DNA of 64,000 nucleotides from Candidatus Hydrogenedens sp. (lineage in GTDB: Bacteria > Hydrogenedentota > Hydrogenedentia > Hydrogenedentales > Hydrogenedentaceae): assembly GCA_049968235.1 (NCBI GenBank), contig JBMFRC010000007.1:96001-160000 (forward strand), read 5' to 3'. Under the pieces are notes generated by a model. It did not search any database, had not been told where the DNA came from, and saw only the letters and a list, made by a program, of their open reading frames with translations. This document shows, piece after piece, positions 38,261 to 64,000 of this stretch (positions are counted from its first letter, which is position 1; every line of letters begins with the position of its first letter). The position numbers were made by a program, and so were the translations under genes.

Positions 38261-38439
38261 CGCATCTATAGCCTTTCAAAATTTTGTTCAGGCTACAGAC
38301 GGAGGATTAAACACTGGAAGGGAAGTTGTTCAGCCCATATTTGATGGACTGTCAGACATCAGCCTTCCCGCGAGACCTCAGTCTGTTCGCTCAAATCGGA
38401 CAGCAACTGGTAGGTCTTCGGACTTGCAGGCACAAACCT

Positions 38440-38570
38440 ACTTGGCTCGGCTTCCCAGAAATGCATCCAGTGCCATTACGAGCTGTTCGTTCCTGCTCAC
38501 CGCTGCGGGGCAGTTCCGGCTTTGCACCGGATTCCCTCTTAGCACCCTTTACACTACTTTGGGTGACCAG
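38440..38570 (-). ncRNA. cobalamin (B12) riboswitch, in the 5' leader of the 36146..38260 operon
   Basis: Minus strand reads 'AAGGGUGCUAAGAGGGAAUCCGGUGCAAAGCCGGAACUGCCCCGCAGCGGUGAGCAGG...GUAAUGGCACUGGAUGCAUUUCUGGGAAGCCGAGCC', matching the conserved GGGAA..GGUG..AA..CC, CCCCGC and GCCACUGG..GGGAAGSC core of the cobalamin aptamer. Locally GC-rich with no credible ORF. Confidence 0.8.
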
Positions 38571-38707
38571 TCACAGAGCGATTCAATTTTGTTTGTATTC
38601 ACTTATAGAGTAATAACACAAAAAGATAAAAAATTTCAAATATTTCAGAACCAATATACCTCTATATGGTATATTAATATTATAGATGTCAAAAGGAAAA
38701 AACGAAT

Positions 38708-41248: not shown

Positions 41249-41325
41249 CGCGGGGTGGAGCAGTCTGGCAGCTCGTTGGGCTCATAACCCAAAGGTCGCT
41301 GGTTCGAATCCAGCCCCCGCTACCA
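41249..41325 (+). tRNA. initiator tRNA-fMet (anticodon CAU)
   Basis: 'CGCGGGGUGGAGCAG...GGGCUCAUAACCC...GGUUCGAAUCC..CCCCGCUACCA' is near-identical to bacterial initiator tRNA. It has a C1:U72 mismatch, three G-C pairs in the anticodon stem, and an encoded CCA. Confidence 0.9.
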
Positions 41326-54078: not shown

Positions 54079-54154
54079 TGCCGGATCGCCTAATTGGTAG
54101 GGCACCTGACTCTGGATCAGGCTTGTCTAGGTTCGAGTCCTAGTCCGGCAGCCA
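54079..54154 (+). tRNA. tRNA-Gln (anticodon CUG)
   Basis: Cloverleaf with U1:A72, acceptor UGCCGGA/UCCGGCA, anticodon loop CUCUGGA, T-loop GGUUCGAGUCC and CCA. Confidence 0.85.
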
Positions 54155-54254: not shown

Positions 54255-54330
54255 GGCCCCTTCATCTAGCGGTTCAGGATGCAGGATTCTCAGTCCTGTC
54301 ACACGGGTTCGAATCCCGTAGGGGCTGCCA
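54255..54330 (+). tRNA. tRNA-Glu (anticodon CUC)
   Basis: 'GGCCCCUUCAUCUAGCGGUUCAGGA...' resembles tRNA-Glu. Anticodon stem CAGGA/UCCUG with loop UUCUCAG, T-arm ACGGGUUCGAAUCCCGU, and CCA. Confidence 0.85.
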
Positions 54331-54683: not shown

Positions 54684-55045
54684 TTCTTGAGAAACTGGAT
54701 TCCGTCACTGCTTATTTTAAAACCTCTTAGTTTAAGGATATAGCAACAGTTTGTATATAGTACTTATATCCTATCAACAAAGATGGTAACTATAATCCAC
54801 CCTCCTTTCCCTCTTCAAGACATATCTACCTACTATAATTCCGGGTTGTGTTTGTAATATCACTACTTTACACTTTCCTCGGTTATTTTCACACTACCTT
54901 ATATAATATAATTTGCTATGCAACATCAGAGACAAAATCTTAATCCATTTCTCTTTTTTAGATTGTATTTGATAGATGATACATACATTGCCAATAATGC
55001 TAACACATTAATACATAACCATATAGTCTTCTGTAAGGTTTTTTT

Positions 55046-55978
55046 ATGTTTGTATTTAAAATATTTTCTCGTTTAATGGTTTTCTGGGTAATTCTTGCAG
55101 GAATAATAGGTTATTTTTATCCACCCGCACTGACTATTTTTAATCCATACAAAGATTGGTTTTTCATGATTACAATGGCAGGAATTGGGGTCGTGTTAAA
55201 AATTGAAGATTTCATTCCCGTAGTAAAACGTCCTCACTGGGTATTGTTAGGAACAATTGCCCAATTTGTAATTATGCCGTTGTTGGGATTTTTAATTGCC
55301 AGGGGGCTACAATTACCCGCCAACTTAGCAATTGGTGTGATATTGGTCGGTTCTACACCCGGAGCAATGGCTTCTAATGTAATTTCCTACATGGCAGGGG
55401 CAGATGTTGCATATTCAGTCGCATTAACCAGTACAAGCACTTTATTATCCCCTATCCTCACACCCCTATGCACCTATATTTTTGGGAGTGTTTATATTTC
55501 AGTACCATTCTGGGGAATGTTCATGAGCGTTATAAAAATGGTCATCATTCCACTCATGGTCGGTTTTGCCATTCGTTATCTACTAAAAGAACGGATTAAC
55601 CGAATTATTGATATATTCCCCGCACTATCATCCCTTTGTATTGCCTTTATTTGCGGATTAGTCGTAGCACTCAATGCAGATAAATTTAGTCAGGTGTCTT
55701 CACTAATTTTTTCTGCAGTAGTCCTCCACAATTTTTTAGGTTTAATTTTAGGATATGGTGCCGGGGTATTATACCGTTTCGATGAAAAACGCAGACGAAC
55801 ACTATCCATTGAAGTAGGTATGCAAAATGCAGGATTAGGCGCGGTATTAGCCTTAAACCACTTTTCCTCAGAGAGTGCCCTTCCCAATGCACTATTCGCA
55901 ACATGGTGCATCATAACAGCATCCATATTAGCCGAACTATGGCAATGGAAAAACAGAAAAAAAATACACCTGAACTAA
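55046..55978 (+). CDS. bile acid:sodium symporter (BASS/SBF)-family transporter
   Basis: About 9-10 TM helices. 'GVILVGSTPGAMASNVISYMAGADVAYSVALTSTSTLLSPILTP' crossover motif. Confidence 0.75.
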   Translation: MFVFKIFSRLMVFWVILAGIIGYFYPPALTIFNPYKDWFFMITMAGIGVVLKIEDFIPVVKRPHWVLLGTIAQFVIMPLLGFLIARGLQLPANLAIGVILVGSTPGAMASNVISYMAGADVAYSVALTSTSTLLSPILTPLCTYIFGSVYISVPFWGMFMSVIKMVIIPLMVGFAIRYLLKERINRIIDIFPALSSLCIAFICGLVVALNADKFSQVSSLIFSAVVLHNFLGLILGYGAGVLYRFDEKRRRTLSIEVGMQNAGLGAVLALNHFSSESALPNALFATWCIITASILAELWQWKNRKKIHLN

Positions 55979-56215
55979 ATCTTCACATAATTACTGTCCC
56001 ACCACTGCCCCCCCACTTGTATGGAACGAAGGTAAGTTATTAATTATTGAAGTTTGGCGTCTTTTACCATCATTTAATAATCATAGCAAAAATTATAGTA
56101 ATATAAAGTAATCTGTCACTCCTTATAAAAGTATCCGGAATGGAAGTTAAAATTTTTACTTACTTTTCTCTATGCTACAATAGGAACGGTTAAAAACTTT
56201 TAAGGAGAATTAGGT

Positions 56216-58444
56216 ATGCGAAAAATTTTCTTATTAACGCTTCTTTTTGTTTGTAGTTCTCTTTTCTGTCAGGCACAGCCTGCAAATTATCCCGACTGCT
56301 ATGATGAGGTATGGGATACGCCAGGTCAGAATTCATCTGATTCAATGCCTATTGGTAATGGAGACATAGGAGCAAATGTTTGGACTGAGGAGAATGGCGA
56401 TATTGTCGCACTCATCAGTAAAACTGACGCATGGGATGATAACGGTCAGTTGTTAAAATTGGCTCGTGTCCGTTTCAAGATAACCCCATCCCTTACGGGG
56501 ACAAATGCAAATTTCTCTCAACGATTACATCTACAACATGGCACGATTAAAATACAGGGGAATGCTGGAAAAACAATGGCAATATTTCGTGTAGATGCAA
56601 ATATGCCCGTGGCGGTTTTGAATGTGGAAAGTAAAGAAAATGTGGATTTACAGGTAATATTAGAAGTCTGGCGGACAACACCCCGCAATTATACTGAGGA
56701 TGAAGTCAATCAGAGCAGTTTAATCCAGAAAATTGAAGAAGGTGTGGTGTATCCGGATGTTGTGTTGGATAATCCACCTTTTTCAGGGCTATTGGTATAT
56801 CATCAAAATAATCATTCTATCTGGGGTTACTCAATGGATTTGCAGGGCTTCGCTGAGTATAAAAATAAATTTACTGACCCCCTATTAAACCGAATCTTTG
56901 GTTGTGCGATTTGGTCAAATGATTTAAAAAAGGCAGATACCTTTACCTTAGAAGGTAAAGGTAAGAAAAATTACACGGTATATATTTTAGGGAAGACCTT
57001 GCATCCCTCAACCCCTGATGAGTGGTTGAATACCGTAGTAAAAGAGCGGGAAAAGGTGCTAAATGTCGTAGAGGATAAAGCATTTGAGCAGCATAAAAAC
57101 TGGTGGCGAAACTTCTGGCAGAGAAGTTGGATTGTCGCAAGTGGTGATAAGGATGCGGAGTGGATTAGCAAAGTATATGCCTTACAACGCTGGGTAACTG
57201 CATGCGGAAGTAGAGGTGCATATCCGGTTAAATTTAATGGTTCCATCTTTACTGTGGAATGGCGAGAAGGTAATGAACTTAAGTCGGACCCGGACTATCG
57301 TCGTTGGGGAGGTGGCTACTGGTGGCAAAATACAAGATTGCCTTACTGGCCTTTGTTATCTTCCGGTGATTTTGATTTAATGAAGCCTGTATTCGATTTG
57401 TATATGAGTATAATGGAAATCAGTAAACTGCGTAGCAAAGTCTATTGGGGGTGTGAAGGTATTTATATGCCAGAAACTATATATCCCTGGGGGCTATTAC
57501 GCAATCGCGATTATGGATTTGACCGAACCGGTTTGAAAGTAGGCGAAATTACCAATCCATATATCCGCTGGATTTGGGCAAGTGGACTGGAATTAACTTT
57601 GATGATGTTGGACTACTATGATTTCACAAAGGATGACGTATTTCTAAAAGAAACCTTGCTACCCTATGCCCGTGAGATTATCCGATTTTTTGAAACCCGT
57701 TTTCCTAAAAATGAAACCGGAATGCTCATTATACATCCGGCGCAAGCAGTAGAAACTTATCAGGAAGGTGTAACCGATGATACGCCCACTGTTTCTGGCT
57801 TGCATGCAGTTCTACCACGATTAATGGCACTGAACACTACCGAAATTACAAATGAAGAAAAATCCCGTTGGGAACAATTATTAAAGTCTGTAGTGCCTGT
57901 ACCGATTAAAGATGGTCGAATTCAGCCAGCACGCATATTTAACTCCAAACGCGGGAATGTAGAAAACCCCGAATTATATGCCGTGTTCCCATACCGCATC
58001 TTTGCCACCGGCAAACCCAACATAGACATAGCGATTGAAAGTTTCCAGAAAAGGTATGCAAAAGACTATCACGGCTGGCAACAGGATGCAATTCAGGCAA
58101 GTTTCTTAGGACTAACAGATGAAACAAAAAAAATGTTAATTACAAATGCCTATCGTAAACACGAAGGTTCGCGTTTCCCCGCATTTTGGGGACCGAACTA
58201 CGATTGGATACCCGACCAATGCCACGGTGGAAACATTATGAGCACATTACAATTCATGCTATTGCAATGGGACAAAGATAACATTTATCTATTCCCCGCA
58301 TGGGATAAAAACTGGAATGTAGACTTTAAACTCTATGCCCCCTATAACACCTCTATTCGTTGTATCTTACAGAAGGGGCAAATCCAAATTATAGATGTAA
58401 CTCCACAGGAAAGAAAAAATAATATAACAATGTATCTGCAATAA
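56216..58444 (+). CDS. secreted hypothetical protein, possible glycoside hydrolase (six-hairpin-like)
   Basis: Signal peptide. 'PIGNGDIGANVW' N-terminal pattern is reminiscent of GH95-type enzymes. Weak. Confidence 0.4.
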   Translation: MRKIFLLTLLFVCSSLFCQAQPANYPDCYDEVWDTPGQNSSDSMPIGNGDIGANVWTEENGDIVALISKTDAWDDNGQLLKLARVRFKITPSLTGTNANFSQRLHLQHGTIKIQGNAGKTMAIFRVDANMPVAVLNVESKENVDLQVILEVWRTTPRNYTEDEVNQSSLIQKIEEGVVYPDVVLDNPPFSGLLVYHQNNHSIWGYSMDLQGFAEYKNKFTDPLLNRIFGCAIWSNDLKKADTFTLEGKGKKNYTVYILGKTLHPSTPDEWLNTVVKEREKVLNVVEDKAFEQHKNWWRNFWQRSWIVASGDKDAEWISKVYALQRWVTACGSRGAYPVKFNGSIFTVEWREGNELKSDPDYRRWGGGYWWQNTRLPYWPLLSSGDFDLMKPVFDLYMSIMEISKLRSKVYWGCEGIYMPETIYPWGLLRNRDYGFDRTGLKVGEITNPYIRWIWASGLELTLMMLDYYDFTKDDVFLKETLLPYAREIIRFFETRFPKNETGMLIIHPAQAVETYQEGVTDDTPTVSGLHAVLPRLMALNTTEITNEEKSRWEQLLKSVVPVPIKDGRIQPARIFNSKRGNVENPELYAVFPYRIFATGKPNIDIAIESFQKRYAKDYHGWQQDAIQASFLGLTDETKKMLITNAYRKHEGSRFPAFWGPNYDWIPDQCHGGNIMSTLQFMLLQWDKDNIYLFPAWDKNWNVDFKLYAPYNTSIRCILQKGQIQIIDVTPQERKNNITMYLQ

Positions 58445-58506
58445 AGAAACCTTTTGCCTTTGTGTTAGTCAAAAGAAAAAAATAACGAACACAAGGACAA
58501 AATGAT

Positions 58507-59517
58507 ATGAATTTCAAAATCATTTTGTGGGGATTATTATCTATTTTCCCCATAATACTTTTTGCCGATGAAAATACTCTCCCTAAAATGAATCAAATAC
58601 AGGTTATTGGAACACACAACAGTTATCATAAACGCCCTCAATATCTTTACTGGGCAAAAGAATATGCGAAACAAACAGAAGACTGGGATTATGAACATCT
58701 ACCTTTAGATATGCAATTAGAAAATGGTGTCCGTAGTTTTGAGTTAGATATTCACAATACACCTGAAGGTTGGAAAGTAATGCATGTGCCTAAGTTCGAC
58801 GATACAAGTACATGCCCAAATTTACAGGAATGTCTGAGAGTTATCCGTGAATGGTCAGACAAAAACCAAAAACATGTGCCTATTAGTGTCTTACTTGAAT
58901 GGAAGTCGGAAGGACCTGTTATTGATAAACGCATAACAGTTCCCAAAAAACAAGACGTTGAACGAATTGAAGAGGACATACTTGCGGTATGGGACAAAAC
59001 TAGAATCATCACTCCGGATACTATTCGTGGCGATTTCAAAACACTGGAAGAAGCAATATTAAAAAAAGGTTGGCTTACTCTGGAACAATCCAGAGGAAAA
59101 ATCATGTTTATCCTCCATAACAGAAGAAAATTAAGGGATTTCTATCTGGAAGGGCATCCTAATTTAGAGGGTCGATTAATGTTTGTCAATTCATATCCCG
59201 GTGAACCTTACTCTGCAACCATAATAATTGATAACCCTTTTCATGAAGAAATACCCGTATGGGTTCAAAAAGGATACTTTATTCGTGTTTTCGGTGCTAA
59301 CCCCAAATCGCAGTCTCCCGACAAAATTAGATTAAAAGACGATAAAGCATTTTCATGTGGTGCTCAGGTTATCTCAACAAACAATCCGCCCGGCGAACCT
59401 TACCCCCAAACAGGTTACTTTTTAGTATTCCCCGATGGTTCCACAATTCGCTGGAATCCTATTAATGGTCCCTCAAATATTGATATATCCCCTGAATCAA
59501 AAACCTCCCAAAAATGA
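58507..59517 (+). CDS. secreted PI-PLC X-domain-like phosphodiesterase
   Basis: 'QVIGTHNSYH' catalytic-His motif of phosphatidylinositol-specific phospholipase C X domain. Signal peptide. Confidence 0.6.
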   Translation: MNFKIILWGLLSIFPIILFADENTLPKMNQIQVIGTHNSYHKRPQYLYWAKEYAKQTEDWDYEHLPLDMQLENGVRSFELDIHNTPEGWKVMHVPKFDDTSTCPNLQECLRVIREWSDKNQKHVPISVLLEWKSEGPVIDKRITVPKKQDVERIEEDILAVWDKTRIITPDTIRGDFKTLEEAILKKGWLTLEQSRGKIMFILHNRRKLRDFYLEGHPNLEGRLMFVNSYPGEPYSATIIIDNPFHEEIPVWVQKGYFIRVFGANPKSQSPDKIRLKDDKAFSCGAQVISTNNPPGEPYPQTGYFLVFPDGSTIRWNPINGPSNIDISPESKTSQK

Positions 59518-59780
59518 ATTTCAGAACAACTGATTTAAGTCAATTCTATTCGAAACCTCCAAATAAAGGGAGTTAAAGTATTTTTAAGACAGGTTATACA
59601 TAAGATTATGAGATAAAATCAGATTAATATTTGAAATGAAGGAAGAAAACAATAAGAGGTTTATTTCTTTTCATTTTTTTCTTCACTGCCGTTCTTATTT
59701 CATTTATTATAAGGTCTCATTTAATAAAAAAATGTCTTATGTGTTTAAAAAATTATTTTTTGAAAAAAATTAAAAAAGAC

Positions 59781-59814
59781 TTGACAAATACTTTTTTTTT
59801 TTTTTTGTATAATA
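59781..59814 (+). promoter_or_regulatory. consensus sigma70-like promoter (TTGACA ... TATAAT) with a T16 homopolymer in the spacer
   Basis: TTGACA at 59781-59786. T16 at 59792-59807. TATAAT at 59809-59814. The spacer is 22 nt as sequenced. A GAGGAGG RBS and the ATG at 59895 follow. Confidence 0.55.
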
Positions 59815-59894
59815 AATTTAATGATAATTAAGTAGTAAGAAGTAGTATAAGTGACAATTGAATAATTAAACATCCAAAAGAGGAGGCCAAGGGC

Positions 59895-61436
59895 ATGAAA
59901 AAGGTTATATGCTTTACAGTAGTAGTAATCACTTTGTGTTTGGCGGTTTCCGTTCCGGTTTATAGCGTGGATATTACTTTTCTGAATAAGGTTCGTTCCG
60001 AGGAAAAGCAGGCATACGCGGAGATAAGCAATGGACAGGTAAAAAATGGATTGTGTCGGCTGGCTCGTTTGTTTAGGGATGCACCTCTGGATGATATAAG
60101 TTGTATAGAGCCGTTATTAGGTCCTTTTCAGTTATTTTGTTATGAGTTATCAACTCATAATGAGTTAATAATGCAGAGTTTGGTAGATAGAAACGTTGTT
60201 GTTAATTCTGGACGGGAAGAGCCTGTATTACAACCGAATATGTATCCATCGGACCGATTATTAATGGCGGGAGCGTATGCATTAAGTGAACCGATGGACA
60301 CATTTTCCCACGCACATTTATACCACTATATTCCGCAGTTAATAGGAGATAAAGAGATCTTGCTGAAAGCAGTAGGAGTAGGATTGGGGCTGGTAATCTT
60401 TCCAGAAGGTGGAGAGGCACTGGGGATACCAGGGGATTATTATCGGTCATTAAGTATTCCTTATATGCGTAAACAAATGAGTGTGGAGATACAGCGGTTA
60501 TTTGTGGAGGTTTATGTGCTTATGCGTATAGATGAGTTAAGTGGTGCTATAAAAGAGATGGGGAGTTATGGAAATGAATTGAGTAAGCGGGATGACAAGA
60601 CCTTGTTGTTGGATAAATTAGAAGAATGGGGAATAACAAGGGAAGAGGTAGTAAGTATATCACCGGGATTGAATTGTATTTCATTAGGTCTGCCAAGTCT
60701 GGATGTAAAAGATATAAATTGGGATAGTTTTTTATTGTGGGCGGATATGCTGAGGAAAACGAGTGATTCGCGGGTGGGGTATATGCTATTGTTTATTTTA
60801 CGTTATTCTCCATACTTTGGAGAAGAGGTGGAGAATAAGGTTAGAGGGGTATTGGAGGATATATGTAAGGAGGTTGGTTCGACAGGTAGAGTGGAGGGGA
60901 TATATGCTCGTTGTATATTAAATGACTGGGATGCAAGGTCACATCGCGTAAAAGACTTATATATGCGGACAAAAGAATTACTTCAGACAGGGGTATTACC
61001 AGGGGTATATAGTTTCCGGAGTTTGTATAAAGAGCGAGAACGAGCGATAAATCTGGCATATAATTATTTTGTTAAATATTGTTGGTATGAATACGGAGTG
61101 GAGATAGGTGATGCAATGAGAAGTAGAGACTGGATGAGTAAAGAGTTATTTAAAAGGGAACCTTTGTATATGAGTATGCGTCGGATAAGGGATGCAACGA
61201 ATGTATTGAAGTATAAGAAGAACATGGAAGAATTACTTAATTATTACAAGGATATAGCGGAGCATACACCTAATCCAGAATTAAAAGAAGAGATGTTGTC
61301 CCTTATCAACTCTCCACTTAAGGAAATAGTTCCGCGATTAAAAAATAGTTCGTCTCCACCCGTAGGGGATATATTATTAGATTGGGCGAGAGAAAGAACA
61401 GTGGGGATGTCGGAGAAAAGAGAAAAAGGAAGATAA
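59895..61436 (+). CDS. secreted hypothetical protein (ORFan, distinct G-ending codon usage)
   Basis: Signal peptide 'VVVITLCLAVSVPVYS'. Strong GAGGAGG RBS. Confidence 0.5.
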   Translation: MKKVICFTVVVITLCLAVSVPVYSVDITFLNKVRSEEKQAYAEISNGQVKNGLCRLARLFRDAPLDDISCIEPLLGPFQLFCYELSTHNELIMQSLVDRNVVVNSGREEPVLQPNMYPSDRLLMAGAYALSEPMDTFSHAHLYHYIPQLIGDKEILLKAVGVGLGLVIFPEGGEALGIPGDYYRSLSIPYMRKQMSVEIQRLFVEVYVLMRIDELSGAIKEMGSYGNELSKRDDKTLLLDKLEEWGITREEVVSISPGLNCISLGLPSLDVKDINWDSFLLWADMLRKTSDSRVGYMLLFILRYSPYFGEEVENKVRGVLEDICKEVGSTGRVEGIYARCILNDWDARSHRVKDLYMRTKELLQTGVLPGVYSFRSLYKERERAINLAYNYFVKYCWYEYGVEIGDAMRSRDWMSKELFKREPLYMSMRRIRDATNVLKYKKNMEELLNYYKDIAEHTPNPELKEEMLSLINSPLKEIVPRLKNSSSPPVGDILLDWARERTVGMSEKREKGR

Positions 61437-61544: not shown

Positions 61545-63404
61545 ATGGGAATAGGAATAATAATCGGTATGAGTGGATGTCCTTCAGAAGTGTGTAAGTG
61601 CGGAAATAATGAGCGAACAATAACAACCGAGGTAATTCCACCCGGAGCAGGTAGCATCTCACTGGAACCGGAGAAAGAATCTTATACTCGGGGCGAGAAT
61701 GTATTAGTTACATTTACTCCGGAAACTAATTACAAGATGTATATATGGATTGATACAAGCAGTTTATTTCATCTTTGTCCATCAAATACAATACTTATGA
61801 GGGTAACAGATAATATTCAACTGACGGCGTTACCGTGGTGGACAAAGAGGAAAGTGCATGTGTTTTGGGATACGTCTTTAGTGGATGTAGAAGTTCCAGA
61901 AGATGCAGTAGTACAGAGTCCGGGTTCTTTCGAAGTAGAACGGGAGGTGGATAGCCTGGCAACCTTTTCGGGACAGATAAAAGAAAATTTACCACCTTTA
62001 CCACCTGGTCAAGTTCGGAAGATGCTATGGGATTTGGTATCAATACCAACACATGTAGGACAGAGATGGGGTGAAACGAGTTGTTCGATAGTAGTAGAGG
62101 GTCCGTCCTCACCGACAGCGGAGCCAATATACCTGTATGCAACAGCCCAAGCATGGGATGAGAGCAGTCCTGTATATAGTATGAATATCTTTCCTGCTTC
62201 AATAGTAAATGGGGAAAATTTTGAAGGAAGACTATACTGTAACGGTTGCGGATGTGAGTGGTGTACTTGTTTGTCAGCGTTCCCATATGAGTGGACGAAT
62301 AGTGGGGTTTGTAGGAAGTTTATGTTTTCAATGCGTCCGTCTCCGTATGAAGCATTTGTGTTCTGGCTGGGAATGCAGGGCTATAATCTATCGCAAAATG
62401 CGGAATATACATTTGAGAGTCCAGGTGGAGGTAGTATGAACTTTTATGGACTTTATGCCCCTCGAATACATCTGTCGCCGTCTGTCGAGGGTCAGGGTGT
62501 GATTCACATAGAGTCAGGAGGGTATACAGAGCGATGGGGATATAACCCAATGCCATTTTGTATTGGAGGAGAATGTTCAGGATGGGTACAGGAGGATATA
62601 TCTAATTGTGTCAATATCTTAGGCAATAAAGTGGTATTAAAAGCAGAACCGTGTAACACTTCATGGATATTTGACCATTGGGAATATTTGGACGCGGGTG
62701 AAGGTGAGGGAAATTCTGGTAGTTGGGTAGAAATACCGGATGTTGGAGATAGACTGAATACCTATATGAACTGGTGGGGTTATCTGGATGAAACTCCGGG
62801 GCATCTCCATGTCCCCTGGGGAGAAACCAATTTCCAGGTCAAAGCCGTTTTTAGAAGATATGGTGTGTTTACGGTACAACCAAATGACCCTCAAATTTGG
62901 TGGCATACAATTATATACAATTTTTTTGAGGAAAAGGGTTATAATTCAATAATGGTTTTTAGTTTTAATAATTTTTTTGCTATTAGTAATTTTAAAGCTA
63001 GTTTACATAATTTGCCTAAATACGATGTTTTTCTATATAGTGGGCACCATGCTGGTGGTTGTTTGGGGGATGTATCATGGCAAGATATTCTGATTAATAA
63101 TCACGGGCATGGTTATTTGCTTGTATATCTTTTAGCATGTAATACGGCAAATATAATAATTTATAATGGTCAAGAGATTGATTTAGGGGAAAGATGGAAA
63201 GGTGCTTTTAATGCTTCATGTTTTATAGGATTTGAACAAATACTCTCCGAACTAGCGGCACAATCTTTCGACACAATGTTTTACCATTTCTTAAGATATT
63301 ATTTTCCACATTCACCTCGAATGGCTGCTGAATTAGCATCATGGACGACAACAGTAGATGTGCGTATTTTAGGAGATGTCTATTTGCCGTTTTGTGAAGG
63401 TTGA
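61545..63404 (+). CDS. hypothetical Cys-rich lipoprotein (lipobox IIGMSGC)
   Basis: Lipobox; many Cys (CPSEVCKCGNNE, CNGCGCEWCTC); no recognised family. Confidence 0.5.
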   Translation: MGIGIIIGMSGCPSEVCKCGNNERTITTEVIPPGAGSISLEPEKESYTRGENVLVTFTPETNYKMYIWIDTSSLFHLCPSNTILMRVTDNIQLTALPWWTKRKVHVFWDTSLVDVEVPEDAVVQSPGSFEVEREVDSLATFSGQIKENLPPLPPGQVRKMLWDLVSIPTHVGQRWGETSCSIVVEGPSSPTAEPIYLYATAQAWDESSPVYSMNIFPASIVNGENFEGRLYCNGCGCEWCTCLSAFPYEWTNSGVCRKFMFSMRPSPYEAFVFWLGMQGYNLSQNAEYTFESPGGGSMNFYGLYAPRIHLSPSVEGQGVIHIESGGYTERWGYNPMPFCIGGECSGWVQEDISNCVNILGNKVVLKAEPCNTSWIFDHWEYLDAGEGEGNSGSWVEIPDVGDRLNTYMNWWGYLDETPGHLHVPWGETNFQVKAVFRRYGVFTVQPNDPQIWWHTIIYNFFEEKGYNSIMVFSFNNFFAISNFKASLHNLPKYDVFLYSGHHAGGCLGDVSWQDILINNHGHGYLLVYLLACNTANIIIYNGQEIDLGERWKGAFNASCFIGFEQILSELAAQSFDTMFYHFLRYYFPHSPRMAAELASWTTTVDVRILGDVYLPFCEG

Positions 63405-63445: not shown

Positions 63446-64000
63446 ATGTTGAGATTGGGTGTTATCAGTTTATTTTTAATGGGCTTGGGTTGTGTCAATG
63501 AAACTTATAAGTATAACTCTCCGTATGTGATATGGGAATGGAGATTGGGTCCGCTAAAAGAATTTAAGGAAGGAATCTTTCAAAAGGAGATTGTTGAATT
63601 TGCAAATCTTTTTATAAAAGAGTTTTCGTTTGAAAAAGAGGATATATCGCCATTTTTATATAGTAAATACTTTGCAGATGGGGATATATATATAACTTTA
63701 ATATATGTCAGGGATGAGCAAAAAAGAAAACAATGGCAATCTTTACTGGTTGAATATAGAAAAATAGATATACCTATGTATACGGATTACATAGTTACAA
63801 TTTCTTTGTTAACCAATCGAGTGGTTCAATTTTATAACGGGGGGGTTCTTACTTCATATAGTGGAAACTTGCATTTTTCGAACTCATACATGGACCGTAG
63901 ATTGAAGATGGACAACGAAAATAATGAGGGTACAATGTGTGTTGAGAAGATATCGGAATATATAGGTATCCCTGAAGAAAAAAGAACAAGTGTAGAAATA
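63446..64000 (+). CDS. hypothetical lipoprotein (lipobox LMGLGC), 3'-truncated by the window end
   Basis: ATG at 63446. Open to the end of the window. Not in the ORF track because no stop is reached. Confidence 0.45.
   Translation, partial: MLRLGVISLFLMGLGCVNETYKYNSPYVIWEWRLGPLKEFKEGIFQKEIVEFANLFIKEFSFEKEDISPFLYSKYFADGDIYITLIYVRDEQKRKQWQSLLVEYRKIDIPMYTDYIVTISLLTNRVVQFYNGGVLTSYSGNLHFSNSYMDRRLKMDNENNEGTMCVEKISEYIGIPEEKRTSVEI

What the first reader, a model, noticed from the sequence alone, without database searches (positions are those of the whole stretch)
59781..59895. Perfect -35 and -10 hexamers separated by a T16 homopolymer: candidate phase-variable promoter
TTGACA and TATAAT are both exact consensus, but they are 22 nt apart because of a 16-T run. 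A tract of about 11 T would give the optimal 17-nt spacing.

Homopolymer-length-dependent promoter spacing is a classic phase-variation mechanism (for example Bordetella fim and Neisseria promoters).

The downstream gene is a secreted ORFan at the head of a compositionally distinct block. Homopolymer undercalling is suspected elsewhere in this assembly, so the true tract length is uncertain.
Basis: seen in the sequence. Interest (0 to 1): 0.6.

Follow-up and report, generated by a model that had tools for sequence, protein, structure and literature searches.

The report
Conserved promoter with over-long T-tract spacer
A strong, evolutionarily conserved promoter in an uncultured Hydrogenedens bacterium has a run of T's between its two recognition boxes; in nine related lineages with the gene present the run gives a workable 16-19 bp spacing, but in this genome it has grown to 15 T's (21 bp), which probably turns down an operon of exported envelope proteins. 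Whether this is a reversible switch could not be tested.

Summary
TTGACA lies at 59781-59786, followed by AATAC, T15 (59792-59806, not T16), G, and TATAAT at 59808-59813. The spacer is 21 nt, not 22. T15 is the only homopolymer longer than 9 in 64 kb.

The organism is Candidatus Hydrogenedens sp. The same architecture (A-rich UP-like block, TTGACA, AAtAC, T-run, G, TAnAAT) precedes every family member whose upstream DNA I could read. That is 11 lineages, with protein identity down to about 20%, so the promoter is genuine.

In the nine relatives that still carry the gene, the T-run is 7-12 and the spacer 16-19 (mean 17.0, sd 1.0). T-run length and non-T spacer length are negatively correlated (r = -0.78). 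The window is the only outlier.

The best reading is a slippage-prone spacer carrying an expanded, probably low or OFF allele in front of intact genes for exported proteins.

Reversible phase variation is not shown. In five lineages, 2-5 assemblies each carry identical tract lengths, and no reads were available.

The gene is not an ORFan, and no homopolymer-linked frameshifts were found. If the switch is real, this is a new member of a known kind (porA, hif, vlp-type spacer variation).

The parts
59752..59780 (+). A/T-rich UP-element-like block (ATTATTTTTTGAAAAAAATTAAAAAAGAC) directly upstream of the -35 hexamer
   Evidence: The proximal A6-A8 tract and a distal A/T block are present in most or all lineages aligned. 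The resemblance to the E. coli UP consensus is recalled from memory, not tested.
59781..59786 (+). -35 hexamer TTGACA (exact consensus)
   Evidence: Invariant in all 10 lineages aligned, and also present in the eleventh lineage, L134.
59787..59791 (+). Non-T part of the spacer, AATAC
   Evidence: Conserved as AAtAC-like in relatives. Its length (5-9 nt counting the nt after the run) varies inversely with the T-run.
59792..59806 (+). T15 homopolymer, the slippage-prone spacer tract
   Evidence: It is the only homopolymer longer than 9 in the window. The homologous runs are T7-T12 in relatives.
59808..59813 (+). -10 hexamer TATAAT (exact consensus), preceded by a G at 59807 that is conserved in 8 of the 10 aligned lineages
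   Evidence: Relatives have TATAAT, TACAAT, TATGAT, CATAAT, TAAGAT or TGAAAT at the same place.
59820..59894 (+). Predicted 5' UTR (start inferred about 7 nt after the -10). It carries the conserved motifs AGTAGTAT (59841-59848) and ACAATTGAA (59854-59862) and the Shine-Dalgarno GAGGAGG (59880-59886).
   Evidence: The motifs are conserved in 8 lineages and no conserved RNA fold was found. The transcription start is inferred, not measured.
59895..61436 (+). Gene 1: 513-aa protein with a signal-peptide-like N-terminus and an all-alpha solenoid fold, from a small lineage-restricted family
61545..63404 (+). Gene 2: 619-aa putative lipoprotein with an InlB B-repeat domain; conserved partner of gene 1
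   Evidence: Pfam Flg_new_2. NCBI names it 'InlB B-repeat-containing protein'. It follows gene 1 in L122, L123, L127, L129, L136 and L138.
63446..64000 (+). Gene 3 (runs off the window): putative lipoprotein (MLRLGVISLFLMGLGC...); not conserved with the third gene of relatives

Best explanation
This is the genuine housekeeping-sigma (sigma-70-type) promoter of a conserved Hydrogenedentota operon that encodes exported envelope proteins. The operon holds an alpha-solenoid protein with a signal peptide, an InlB-B-repeat lipoprotein and a further lipoprotein.

The promoter is built as an UP-like A-tract block, TTGACA, a spacer made mostly of a T homopolymer, and TATAAT. The length of the T-run sets the distance and rotational phase between the -35 and -10 boxes. 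Selection keeps that distance at 16-19 bp in nine related lineages that still carry the gene. The run itself drifts by slipped-strand mispairing and is compensated by the non-T part of the spacer.

In this genome the run has expanded to T15, giving 21 bp. That is +4 bp, about 137 degrees and 1.4 nm out of register. RNA polymerase then cannot contact both boxes (or the UP block) optimally, so the operon is predicted to be strongly turned down or OFF in the majority of this population. The genes themselves remain intact. A tract this long should slip frequently, so contraction towards T11-T13 would restore expression. That would make it a contingency-type (phase or rheostat) promoter.

Shown: the anatomy, conservation, spacing constraint, outlier status and intact genes. 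Inferred: the transcriptional effect, the origin by slippage and reversibility. The confidence given (0.55) is for the whole statement up to 'expanded, down-regulating slippage allele'; that the promoter is genuine I put at about 0.9, and that it is an evolved reversible switch at about 0.3-0.35.
For: - Exact hexamers and T15.
- Other promoter-like sites in the same window are TTGACT-17-TATAAT and TTGACT-17-GATAAT, placed just upstream of genes. This supports use of the canonical -35/-10 consensus in this organism. Its genes also carry Shine-Dalgarno sequences.
- The whole promoter block is the best-conserved part of the intergenic region in 10 lineages whose proteins are only about 20-58% identical, while the flanks diverge and the upstream genes differ.
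- In the nine relatives that still carry the gene, the T-run is 7-12 and the spacer 16-19 (mean 17.0, sd 1.0). T-run and non-T spacer length are anticorrelated (r = -0.78, p = 0.013). The variance of the spacer (1.0) is far below the sum of the variances of its parts (4.5). The window lies 4 sd out.
- In every related locus (8-13 kb each) this tract is the only homopolymer of 10 or more nt.
- In the one lineage where gene 1 is a pseudogene (L134), the run has collapsed to T7 and the spacing is lost. This fits selection holding the tract length only while the operon is in use.
- Genes 1 and 2 in the window are full length relative to orthologues. This argues against long-term silencing.
- T15 is reproduced in a separately deposited contig, and there are no homopolymer frameshifts elsewhere in the window.
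- Precedents for -35/-10 spacing switches by repeat tracts: porA poly-G, hifA/B (TA)n and M. hyorhinis (PMC3899988). T-tract rheostat at sabA: PMC4081817.
Against: - No tract-length variation was found among independent assemblies within any lineage: T12 in 5 assemblies (L123-126, L131), T10 in 3 (L132, L133, L135), T10 in 2 (L129, L130), T12 in 2 (L138, L139) and T15 in 2 (window, L001). These are consensus sequences found by exact-protein look-up, and some may come from the same reactor, so this is weak evidence against switching. It is still the only direct test available, and it was negative.
- +4 from the optimum is several slippage steps away, which is unusual for a simple ON/OFF switch.
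- An exact -10 plus an UP-like block could still give appreciable -35-independent transcription, so 'OFF' may be an overstatement.
- There are no reads, no transcription start and no expression data.
- The spacing statistics use 9 phylogenetically related lineages. The -10 assignment is ambiguous in L127 and L129.
Confidence: 0.55

Rival explanations
1. Stable structural spacer, not a switch. The T-run is a conserved strength-tuning element of the promoter (T-rich region upstream of the -10, intrinsic DNA rigidity or curvature, A-tract/T-tract symmetry around the -35). Its length is faithfully inherited in each lineage. T15 is then a fixed lineage-specific mutation that lowers expression permanently or is tolerated because the exact -10 plus UP block suffice. 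Population-level switching plays no adaptive role.
For: - Tract length is identical in all 2-5 assemblies of each of five lineages.
- The run is interrupted or short in some functional lineages (TTCT7 in L128; ATATATA+T8 in L137), so a long pure run is not obligatory.
- The A-rich block and the T-run form an imperfect inverted repeat around the -35 (I1/I2).
- T-rich stretches ending in G just upstream of the -10 are a normal promoter feature in Campylobacter and Helicobacter (my recollection, not tested here).
Against: - T-richness alone would tolerate substitutions. Yet across the 10 aligned lineages the runs are almost pure, as expected if slippage homogenises them or purity is selected.
- Lengths do differ between lineages and are compensated by the non-T part, so the tract does change on evolutionary time scales.
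- A permanent down-mutation of a promoter that is otherwise held at consensus in every relative, in front of intact genes, needs special pleading.
Confidence: 0.3
2. Assembly or sequencing artefact. The true tract is about T11-T13 and the promoter is ordinary and constitutively ON. T15 would be a consensus-calling error at a long homopolymer.
For: - Homopolymers of 15 are error-prone on all platforms (general knowledge).
- The two records that show T15 are 100% identical over 3078 nt and may derive from the same sample or reads.
- No third record of this strain was found.
Against: - Two separately deposited assemblies agree exactly.
- There are no homopolymer-linked frameshifts in 64 kb.
- Typical long-read errors shorten homopolymers rather than lengthen them (general knowledge).
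- An error of +3 or +4 is large.
Confidence: 0.1
3. Chance juxtaposition. The hexamers and the T-run are not a promoter, and transcription of the gene starts elsewhere.
For: An exact hexamer pair at some spacer of 14-24 nt is expected about 0.3 times per window by chance (own arithmetic on the counts). The consensus scanner does not list the site because its spacer is outside 16-18 nt.
Against: The block is conserved base for base in 10 lineages, with a spacing constraint, and always lies about 60-110 nt upstream of the same gene whatever the upstream neighbour.
Confidence: 0.02

Closest known systems
Neisseria meningitidis porA promoter (poly-G tract in the -35/-10 spacer)
   Same: A homopolymer lies inside the spacer, and its length sets the -35/-10 distance and hence the transcript level of a surface protein (PMC3899988).
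   Different: Here the tract is poly-T rather than poly-G, in an uncultured environmental phylum. The tract is conserved across a whole protein family rather than within one species. No length heterogeneity or expression data exist here.
Mycoplasma hyorhinis vlp promoters (poly-A tract between -35 and -10)
   Same: An A/T homopolymer makes up most of the spacer of promoters that drive lipoprotein genes. This class is cited among spacing-type promoter repeats in PMC3899988. The detail that a tract of 17 A is the ON state is my recollection.
   Different: vlp genes form a multigene family switching independently within one genome. Here there is a single-copy operon, and no demonstrated switching.
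Haemophilus influenzae hifA/hifB (TA)n spacer repeat
   Same: The repeat number changes the -10/-35 spacing and gives ON, low or OFF states (PMC3899988).
   Different: That is a dinucleotide repeat in a bidirectional promoter. The window has a (TA)7-containing 19-nt spacer at another promoter-like site (about 2243-2210, minus strand, upstream of hcp), which I did not follow up.
Helicobacter pylori sabA T-tract 'rheostat'
   Same: A poly-T tract next to the core promoter changes the axial alignment of UP-like elements and the core promoter and gives graded, multiphasic output (PMC4081817). The promoter here also has an UP-like block whose phase would shift along with the -35.
   Different: The title of section 12 of that paper places such tracts adjacent to the -35 element. 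My recollection is that the sabA tract is upstream of the -35, not between the -35 and -10. That mechanism was shown experimentally, and here nothing has been.
Canonical strong sigma-70 promoter with UP element (e.g. rrnB P1 type)
   Same: Consensus -35 and -10 plus an A/T-rich upstream block. Relatives have 16-19 nt spacers.
   Different: The spacer is 21 nt in this genome, and it is a near-pure homopolymer.

Membership tests
Repeat-tract (SSR) phase-variable promoter, spacer-length type (porA / hif / vlp class) | A simple-sequence repeat lies between the -35 and -10 elements | tested here: met
   T15 at 59792-59806, between TTGACA (59781-86) and TATAAT (59808-13).
Repeat-tract (SSR) phase-variable promoter, spacer-length type (porA / hif / vlp class) | The flanking hexamers are the functional promoter of the downstream gene | tested here: met
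   This rests on comparative evidence only. The block is conserved in 10 lineages upstream of the same gene, the spacer is held at 16-19 nt, and T-run and non-T parts compensate each other. No transcription start has been mapped.
Repeat-tract (SSR) phase-variable promoter, spacer-length type (porA / hif / vlp class) | The tract is long enough to be hypermutable by slippage (roughly 8 or more for homopolymers) | tested here: met
   T15 here and T10-T12 in most relatives. The threshold is from general knowledge.
Repeat-tract (SSR) phase-variable promoter, spacer-length type (porA / hif / vlp class) | Tract length is polymorphic between strains or relatives | tested here: met
   Lengths of 7, 7, 8, 10, 10, 10, 11, 11, 12, 12 and 15 in 11 lineages. 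These are different species or genera, not strains.
Repeat-tract (SSR) phase-variable promoter, spacer-length type (porA / hif / vlp class) | High-frequency, reversible length variation within a clonal population | tested here: inconclusive
   The only proxy available was independent consensus assemblies of the same lineage. They show no variation in five lineages. No read-level data are available with these tools.
Repeat-tract (SSR) phase-variable promoter, spacer-length type (porA / hif / vlp class) | Expression changes with tract length | not testable with these tools
   Needs reporter fusions or RNA-seq.
Canonical sigma-70 promoter | -35 and -10 hexamers close to consensus | tested here: met
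   12 of 12 matches.
Canonical sigma-70 promoter | Spacer of 17 +/- 1 nt (at most 15-19) | tested here: not met
   21 nt in the window and in L001. It is met in the nine relatives that still carry the gene (16-19). The scanner that requires 16-18 nt does not report the site.
H. pylori sabA-type T-tract rheostat | The tract lies adjacent to (upstream of) the -35, between UP-like elements and the core promoter | tested here: not met
   The tract lies inside the -35/-10 spacer. The UP-like block directly abuts the -35.

The most novel reading that the evidence does not exclude
The T-tract is an ancient contingency element, kept pure for its mutability across much of the Hydrogenedentota. It stochastically toggles or grades a conserved operon of envelope proteins in free-living bioreactor and sediment bacteria, for example to escape phage or predators, or to switch attachment state. 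This genome would have been caught in an OFF phase. It would be SSR-based phase variation conserved at family-to-phylum depth in an uncultivated, non-host-associated lineage.
Probability: 0.3. Interest if true: 0.6.

Novelty: new member of a known kind. Interest (0 to 1): 0.4.

Why it matters
Spacer-length phase variation is textbook for host-adapted pathogens. It is scarcely documented in environmental candidate phyla, where nothing is known about promoters or gene regulation.

The comparative data give two things. First, a well-supported promoter architecture for Hydrogenedentota: UP-like block, TTGACA, T-run, TATAAT. Second, a natural allelic series (T7 to T15) with a clear spacing constraint, which can be tested directly by reporter assays or read-level analysis.

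If switching is real, it points to the unknown alpha-solenoid/B-repeat lipoprotein operon as a surface structure under fluctuating selection. If switching is not real, this is simply a strong promoter carrying a down-mutation.

Tried and rejected
- A genome-contig scan with the 14-mer GACTTGACAAATAC was too unspecific.
- A viral-contig scan for TTGACAAATAC+T10 gave 0 hits.
- An exact-protein look-up of the 513-aa product found nothing on record. Only the neighbouring PI-PLC gene led to a second record of this strain.
- Pfam, NCBIfam and PDB sequence searches of genes 1-3 and the orthologous operon genes gave nothing beyond Flg_new_2, apart from a Peptidase_M15_3 C-terminus in L138.
- A 5'-UTR RNA structure was rejected: RNAalifold predicts no pairs.
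- A replication origin as the cause of the skew change was rejected: there is no DnaA-box enrichment.
- Intrinsic terminator reading of the T-run: no terminator-like site was reported at the tract, and no G+C-rich hairpin is visible just before it in the sequence.
- Extended -10 rescue of the 21-nt allele was rejected. TG directly abuts TATAAT (TGTATAAT), one position off the TGnTATAAT register.
- An alternative -35 at 16-18 nt from the -10 (ACAAAT, CAAATA, AAATAC) matches TTGACA at 2 of 6 positions or fewer.
- Homopolymer miscalling elsewhere in the window was not supported.
- The last contig look-up (P0016) gave only 50 nt of upstream DNA.

Full report
**1. What is in the sequence**

Reading 59400-60500 and counting by script gives this layout:
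- TTGACA at 59781-59786
- AATAC at 59787-59791
- a run of 15 T at 59792-59806
- G at 59807
- TATAAT at 59808-59813

The spacer is 21 nt. The arithmetic that T11 would give 17 nt is right.

T15 is exceptional. Every other homopolymer in the 64 kb is 9 nt or shorter, and T-run counts fall about 2.5-3-fold per added base. An i.i.d. model expects about 0.001 such runs per strand.

The exact hexamer pair alone would not be convincing. My arithmetic on the counts gives about 0.3 such pairs at spacers 14-24 per window. The consensus scanner ignores the site because the spacer is outside 16-18 nt.

**2. Organism and promoter usage**

The downstream protein's only named relative is a 'hypothetical protein, partial [Candidatus Hydrogenedens sp.]'. 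Its contig, from MAG GCA_049969095.1, is 100% identical to window 58079-61156 and also carries T15.

Genes in the window have Shine-Dalgarno sequences. Other genes are preceded by TTGACT-17-TATAAT or TTGACT-17-GATAAT sites. A canonical -35/-10 reading is therefore appropriate for this organism.

**3. Comparative test of the promoter**

The 513-aa product (59895-61436) has no Pfam or NCBIfam match. It does have relatives:
- five by word-seeded search, at 37-58% identity
- 35 cluster representatives by a full HMMER profile search of 1.84 billion proteins

I fetched the encoding contigs and ran a metagenome scan with the family alignment. Every locus with readable upstream DNA carries the same architecture: A-rich block, (c)TTGACA, AAtAC-like, T-run, G, TAnAAT.

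| Lineage | Spacer content | Spacer (nt) | -10 |
|---|---|---|---|
| window / L001 | AATAC + T15 + G | 21 | TATAAT |
| L122 | AATAC + T11 + G | 17 | TACAAT |
| L123-126, L131 | AATAC + T12 + G | 18 | TATAAT |
| L127 | AATAC + T11 + GTG | 19 | CATAAT |
| L128 | AACACTTC + T7 + G | 16 | TATGAT |
| L129/130 | AAGCAC + T10 + G | 17 | TGAAAT |
| L132/133/135 | AATAC + T10 + G | 16 | TATAAT |
| L136 | ACTTA + T10 + AG | 17 | TATAAT |
| L137 | AATATATA + T8 + G | 17 | TAAGAT |
| L138/139 | AATGC + T12 (last T is part of the -10) | 16 | TACAAT |
| L134 (pseudogene) | AAAGC + T7 (last T is part of the -10) | 11 | TATAAT |

The upstream neighbour differs between loci: PI-PLC, chorismate synthase, a hydrolase, SurA-like and others. 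The block therefore travels with this gene.

In the multiple alignment, the promoter core is the best-conserved stretch of the intergenic region. This holds although some of the proteins are only about 20% identical.

**4. Spacing constraint**

Among the nine relatives that still carry the gene:
- the T-run averages 10.0 (sd 1.6)
- the spacer averages 17.0 (sd 1.0)
- T-run and non-T spacer length are anticorrelated (Pearson r = -0.78, p = 0.013)
- the spacer variance (1.0) is far below the sum of the variances of its parts (4.5)

This is the signature of selection on -35/-10 distance with a length-labile T-run. It is also strong indirect evidence that both hexamers are used.

The window, at 21 nt, is 4 sd away. 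It is the only lineage still carrying the gene that falls outside 16-19 nt.

Two caveats apply. The n of 9 is small and the lineages are related. The -10 call is ambiguous in L127 and L129.

In L134 gene 1 is a pseudogene, with a stop at codon 53 and a deletion fusing it to gene 2. There the run has shrunk to T7 and the spacing is lost. This fits a tract length that is held by selection only while the operon is in use.

**5. What the promoter drives**

Gene 2 (61545-63404) starts with a lipobox-like GMSGC, has an InlB B-repeat domain, and follows gene 1 in all loci examined. Its N-terminal 440 residues or so are conserved even in distant loci. Its C-terminal domain can differ, for example Peptidase_M15_3 in L138.

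Gene 3 (from 63446) is a lipoprotein that is not conserved with the third gene of relatives.

The operon thus encodes exported envelope proteins of unknown function. Genes 1 and 2 are intact and full length in the window.

**6. Mechanism proposed**

A 21-bp spacer puts the -35 box 4 bp too far from the -10 box, about 137 degrees and 1.4 nm out of register. No alternative -35 lies at 16-18 nt: CAAATA and its neighbours match at 2 of 6 positions or fewer. The TG before TATAAT is one position off the extended -10 register.

From established knowledge of sigma-70 promoters, such an allele should be much weaker than the 16-18 bp alleles of relatives. Residual transcription dependent on the -10 and the UP block is still possible.

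A T15 run is expected to slip often, so the state could be reversible. This matches known spacing-type switches (porA poly-G, hif (TA)n and M. hyorhinis; PMC3899988). It is also close to the T-tract rheostat at H. pylori sabA (PMC4081817).

**7. What is not shown**

Reversible, high-frequency variation is the defining feature of phase variation, and it could not be tested on reads. The only proxy available was independent assemblies of the same lineage, and it was negative:

| Tract | Number of assemblies | Loci |
|---|---|---|
| T12 | 5 | L123-126, L131 |
| T10 | 3 | L132, L133, L135 |
| T10 | 2 | L129, L130 |
| T12 | 2 | L138, L139 |
| T15 | 2 | window, L001 |

These are consensus sequences, and some probably come from the same reactors. 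They do not exclude minority variants, but they do argue against very unstable consensus lengths.

A stable structural spacer with a fixed down-mutation therefore remains a serious rival (0.3). An assembly error is a minor rival (0.1). Two deposited assemblies agree, and I found no homopolymer-associated frameshifts in the window. The three candidate sites are boundaries between separate genes with their own Pfam families (PdxA next to an FG-GAP protein; MoxR next to DUF58) or, in one case, a gene with no Pfam hit.

**8.

- 'ORFan' is wrong. This is a small family of 35 representatives.
- 'Compositionally distinct block' is only partly right. GC content is ordinary. Plus-strand GC skew changes from about -0.2/-0.3 (1-55 kb) to +0.25/+0.55 from 59.9 kb onward.
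- In this genome, genes on the minus strand have coding-strand skew of about +0.27 and plus-strand genes about -0.1. The change therefore looks like a strand-bias polarity switch, or a segment of different orientation history.
- Orthologous operons show +0.25 (L123), +0.18 (L128) and 0.00 (L138), so the skew is not a family trait. No DnaA-box cluster is present. The cause is unresolved.

**9. Verdict**

The finding is a real, conserved promoter with a homopolymeric spacer. This genome carries a clearly aberrant, probably down-regulating length.

That fits the known class of spacing-type contingency promoters, and it would be a new member of that class in an uncultured phylum. The switch itself is unproven. 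Interest is moderate (0.4).

Noticed in passing
window 2243-2210, minus strand (upstream of 847-2157): A second repeat sits inside a promoter-like spacer: TTGACA-(TA)7TTAGA-TATAAT, with a 19-nt spacer. It lies upstream of a hybrid-cluster protein gene (Pfam Prismane), which is followed by an Rrf2-family regulator gene (262-825). It could be a hif-like (TA)n spacer or an Rrf2 operator.
   Followed up: partly
window 55000-60000: Plus-strand GC skew switches from about -0.2/-0.3 (1-55 kb), through about 0, to +0.25/+0.55 (59.9-64 kb), with unchanged GC content. No DnaA-box cluster is present. The cause could be a replication-related polarity switch, an inversion or an insertion boundary. It is unresolved.
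   Followed up: partly
L134 4864-5300 (OGCI01000270.1): This is a decayed copy of the locus. Gene 1 has a stop at codon 53 and a deletion that fuses it to the start of gene 2. The promoter T-run is only T7, so TATAAT lies 11 nt from TTGACA.
   Followed up: yes
L129 338-1882 and L130: Gene 1 is split into 309-aa and 185-aa ORFs in two independent runs. The -10 is degenerate (TGAAAT, lacking the conserved A at position 2). This may be a second lineage in decay, or a shared frameshift.
   Followed up: no
window 59841-59848 and 59854-59862: The 5'-UTR motifs AGTAGTAT and ACAATTGAA (which contains the palindrome CAATTG) are conserved in 8 lineages, with no conserved RNA secondary structure. They may be an operator or another protein-binding site.
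   Followed up: partly
window 59749-59819: The A-rich UP-like block and the T-run form an imperfect inverted repeat centred on the -35 hexamer (35-nt arms, 71% complementary). The A-tract / -35 / T-tract symmetry recurs in relatives.
   Followed up: no
window 61545-63404; L138 4602-6596: In gene 2 the N-terminal 440 residues or so (lipoprotein plus B-repeat region) are conserved across distant loci, while the C-terminal domain differs (Peptidase_M15_3 in L138). The third gene of the operon is not conserved between lineages. The modular layout resembles that of exchangeable effector domains. This was not tested.
   Followed up: partly
window 38392-38586, minus strand: A cobalamin riboswitch (RF00174, 113 bits) and three tRNA genes (41249-41322, 54079-54151, 54255-54327) were found by the Rfam scan.
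   Followed up: no
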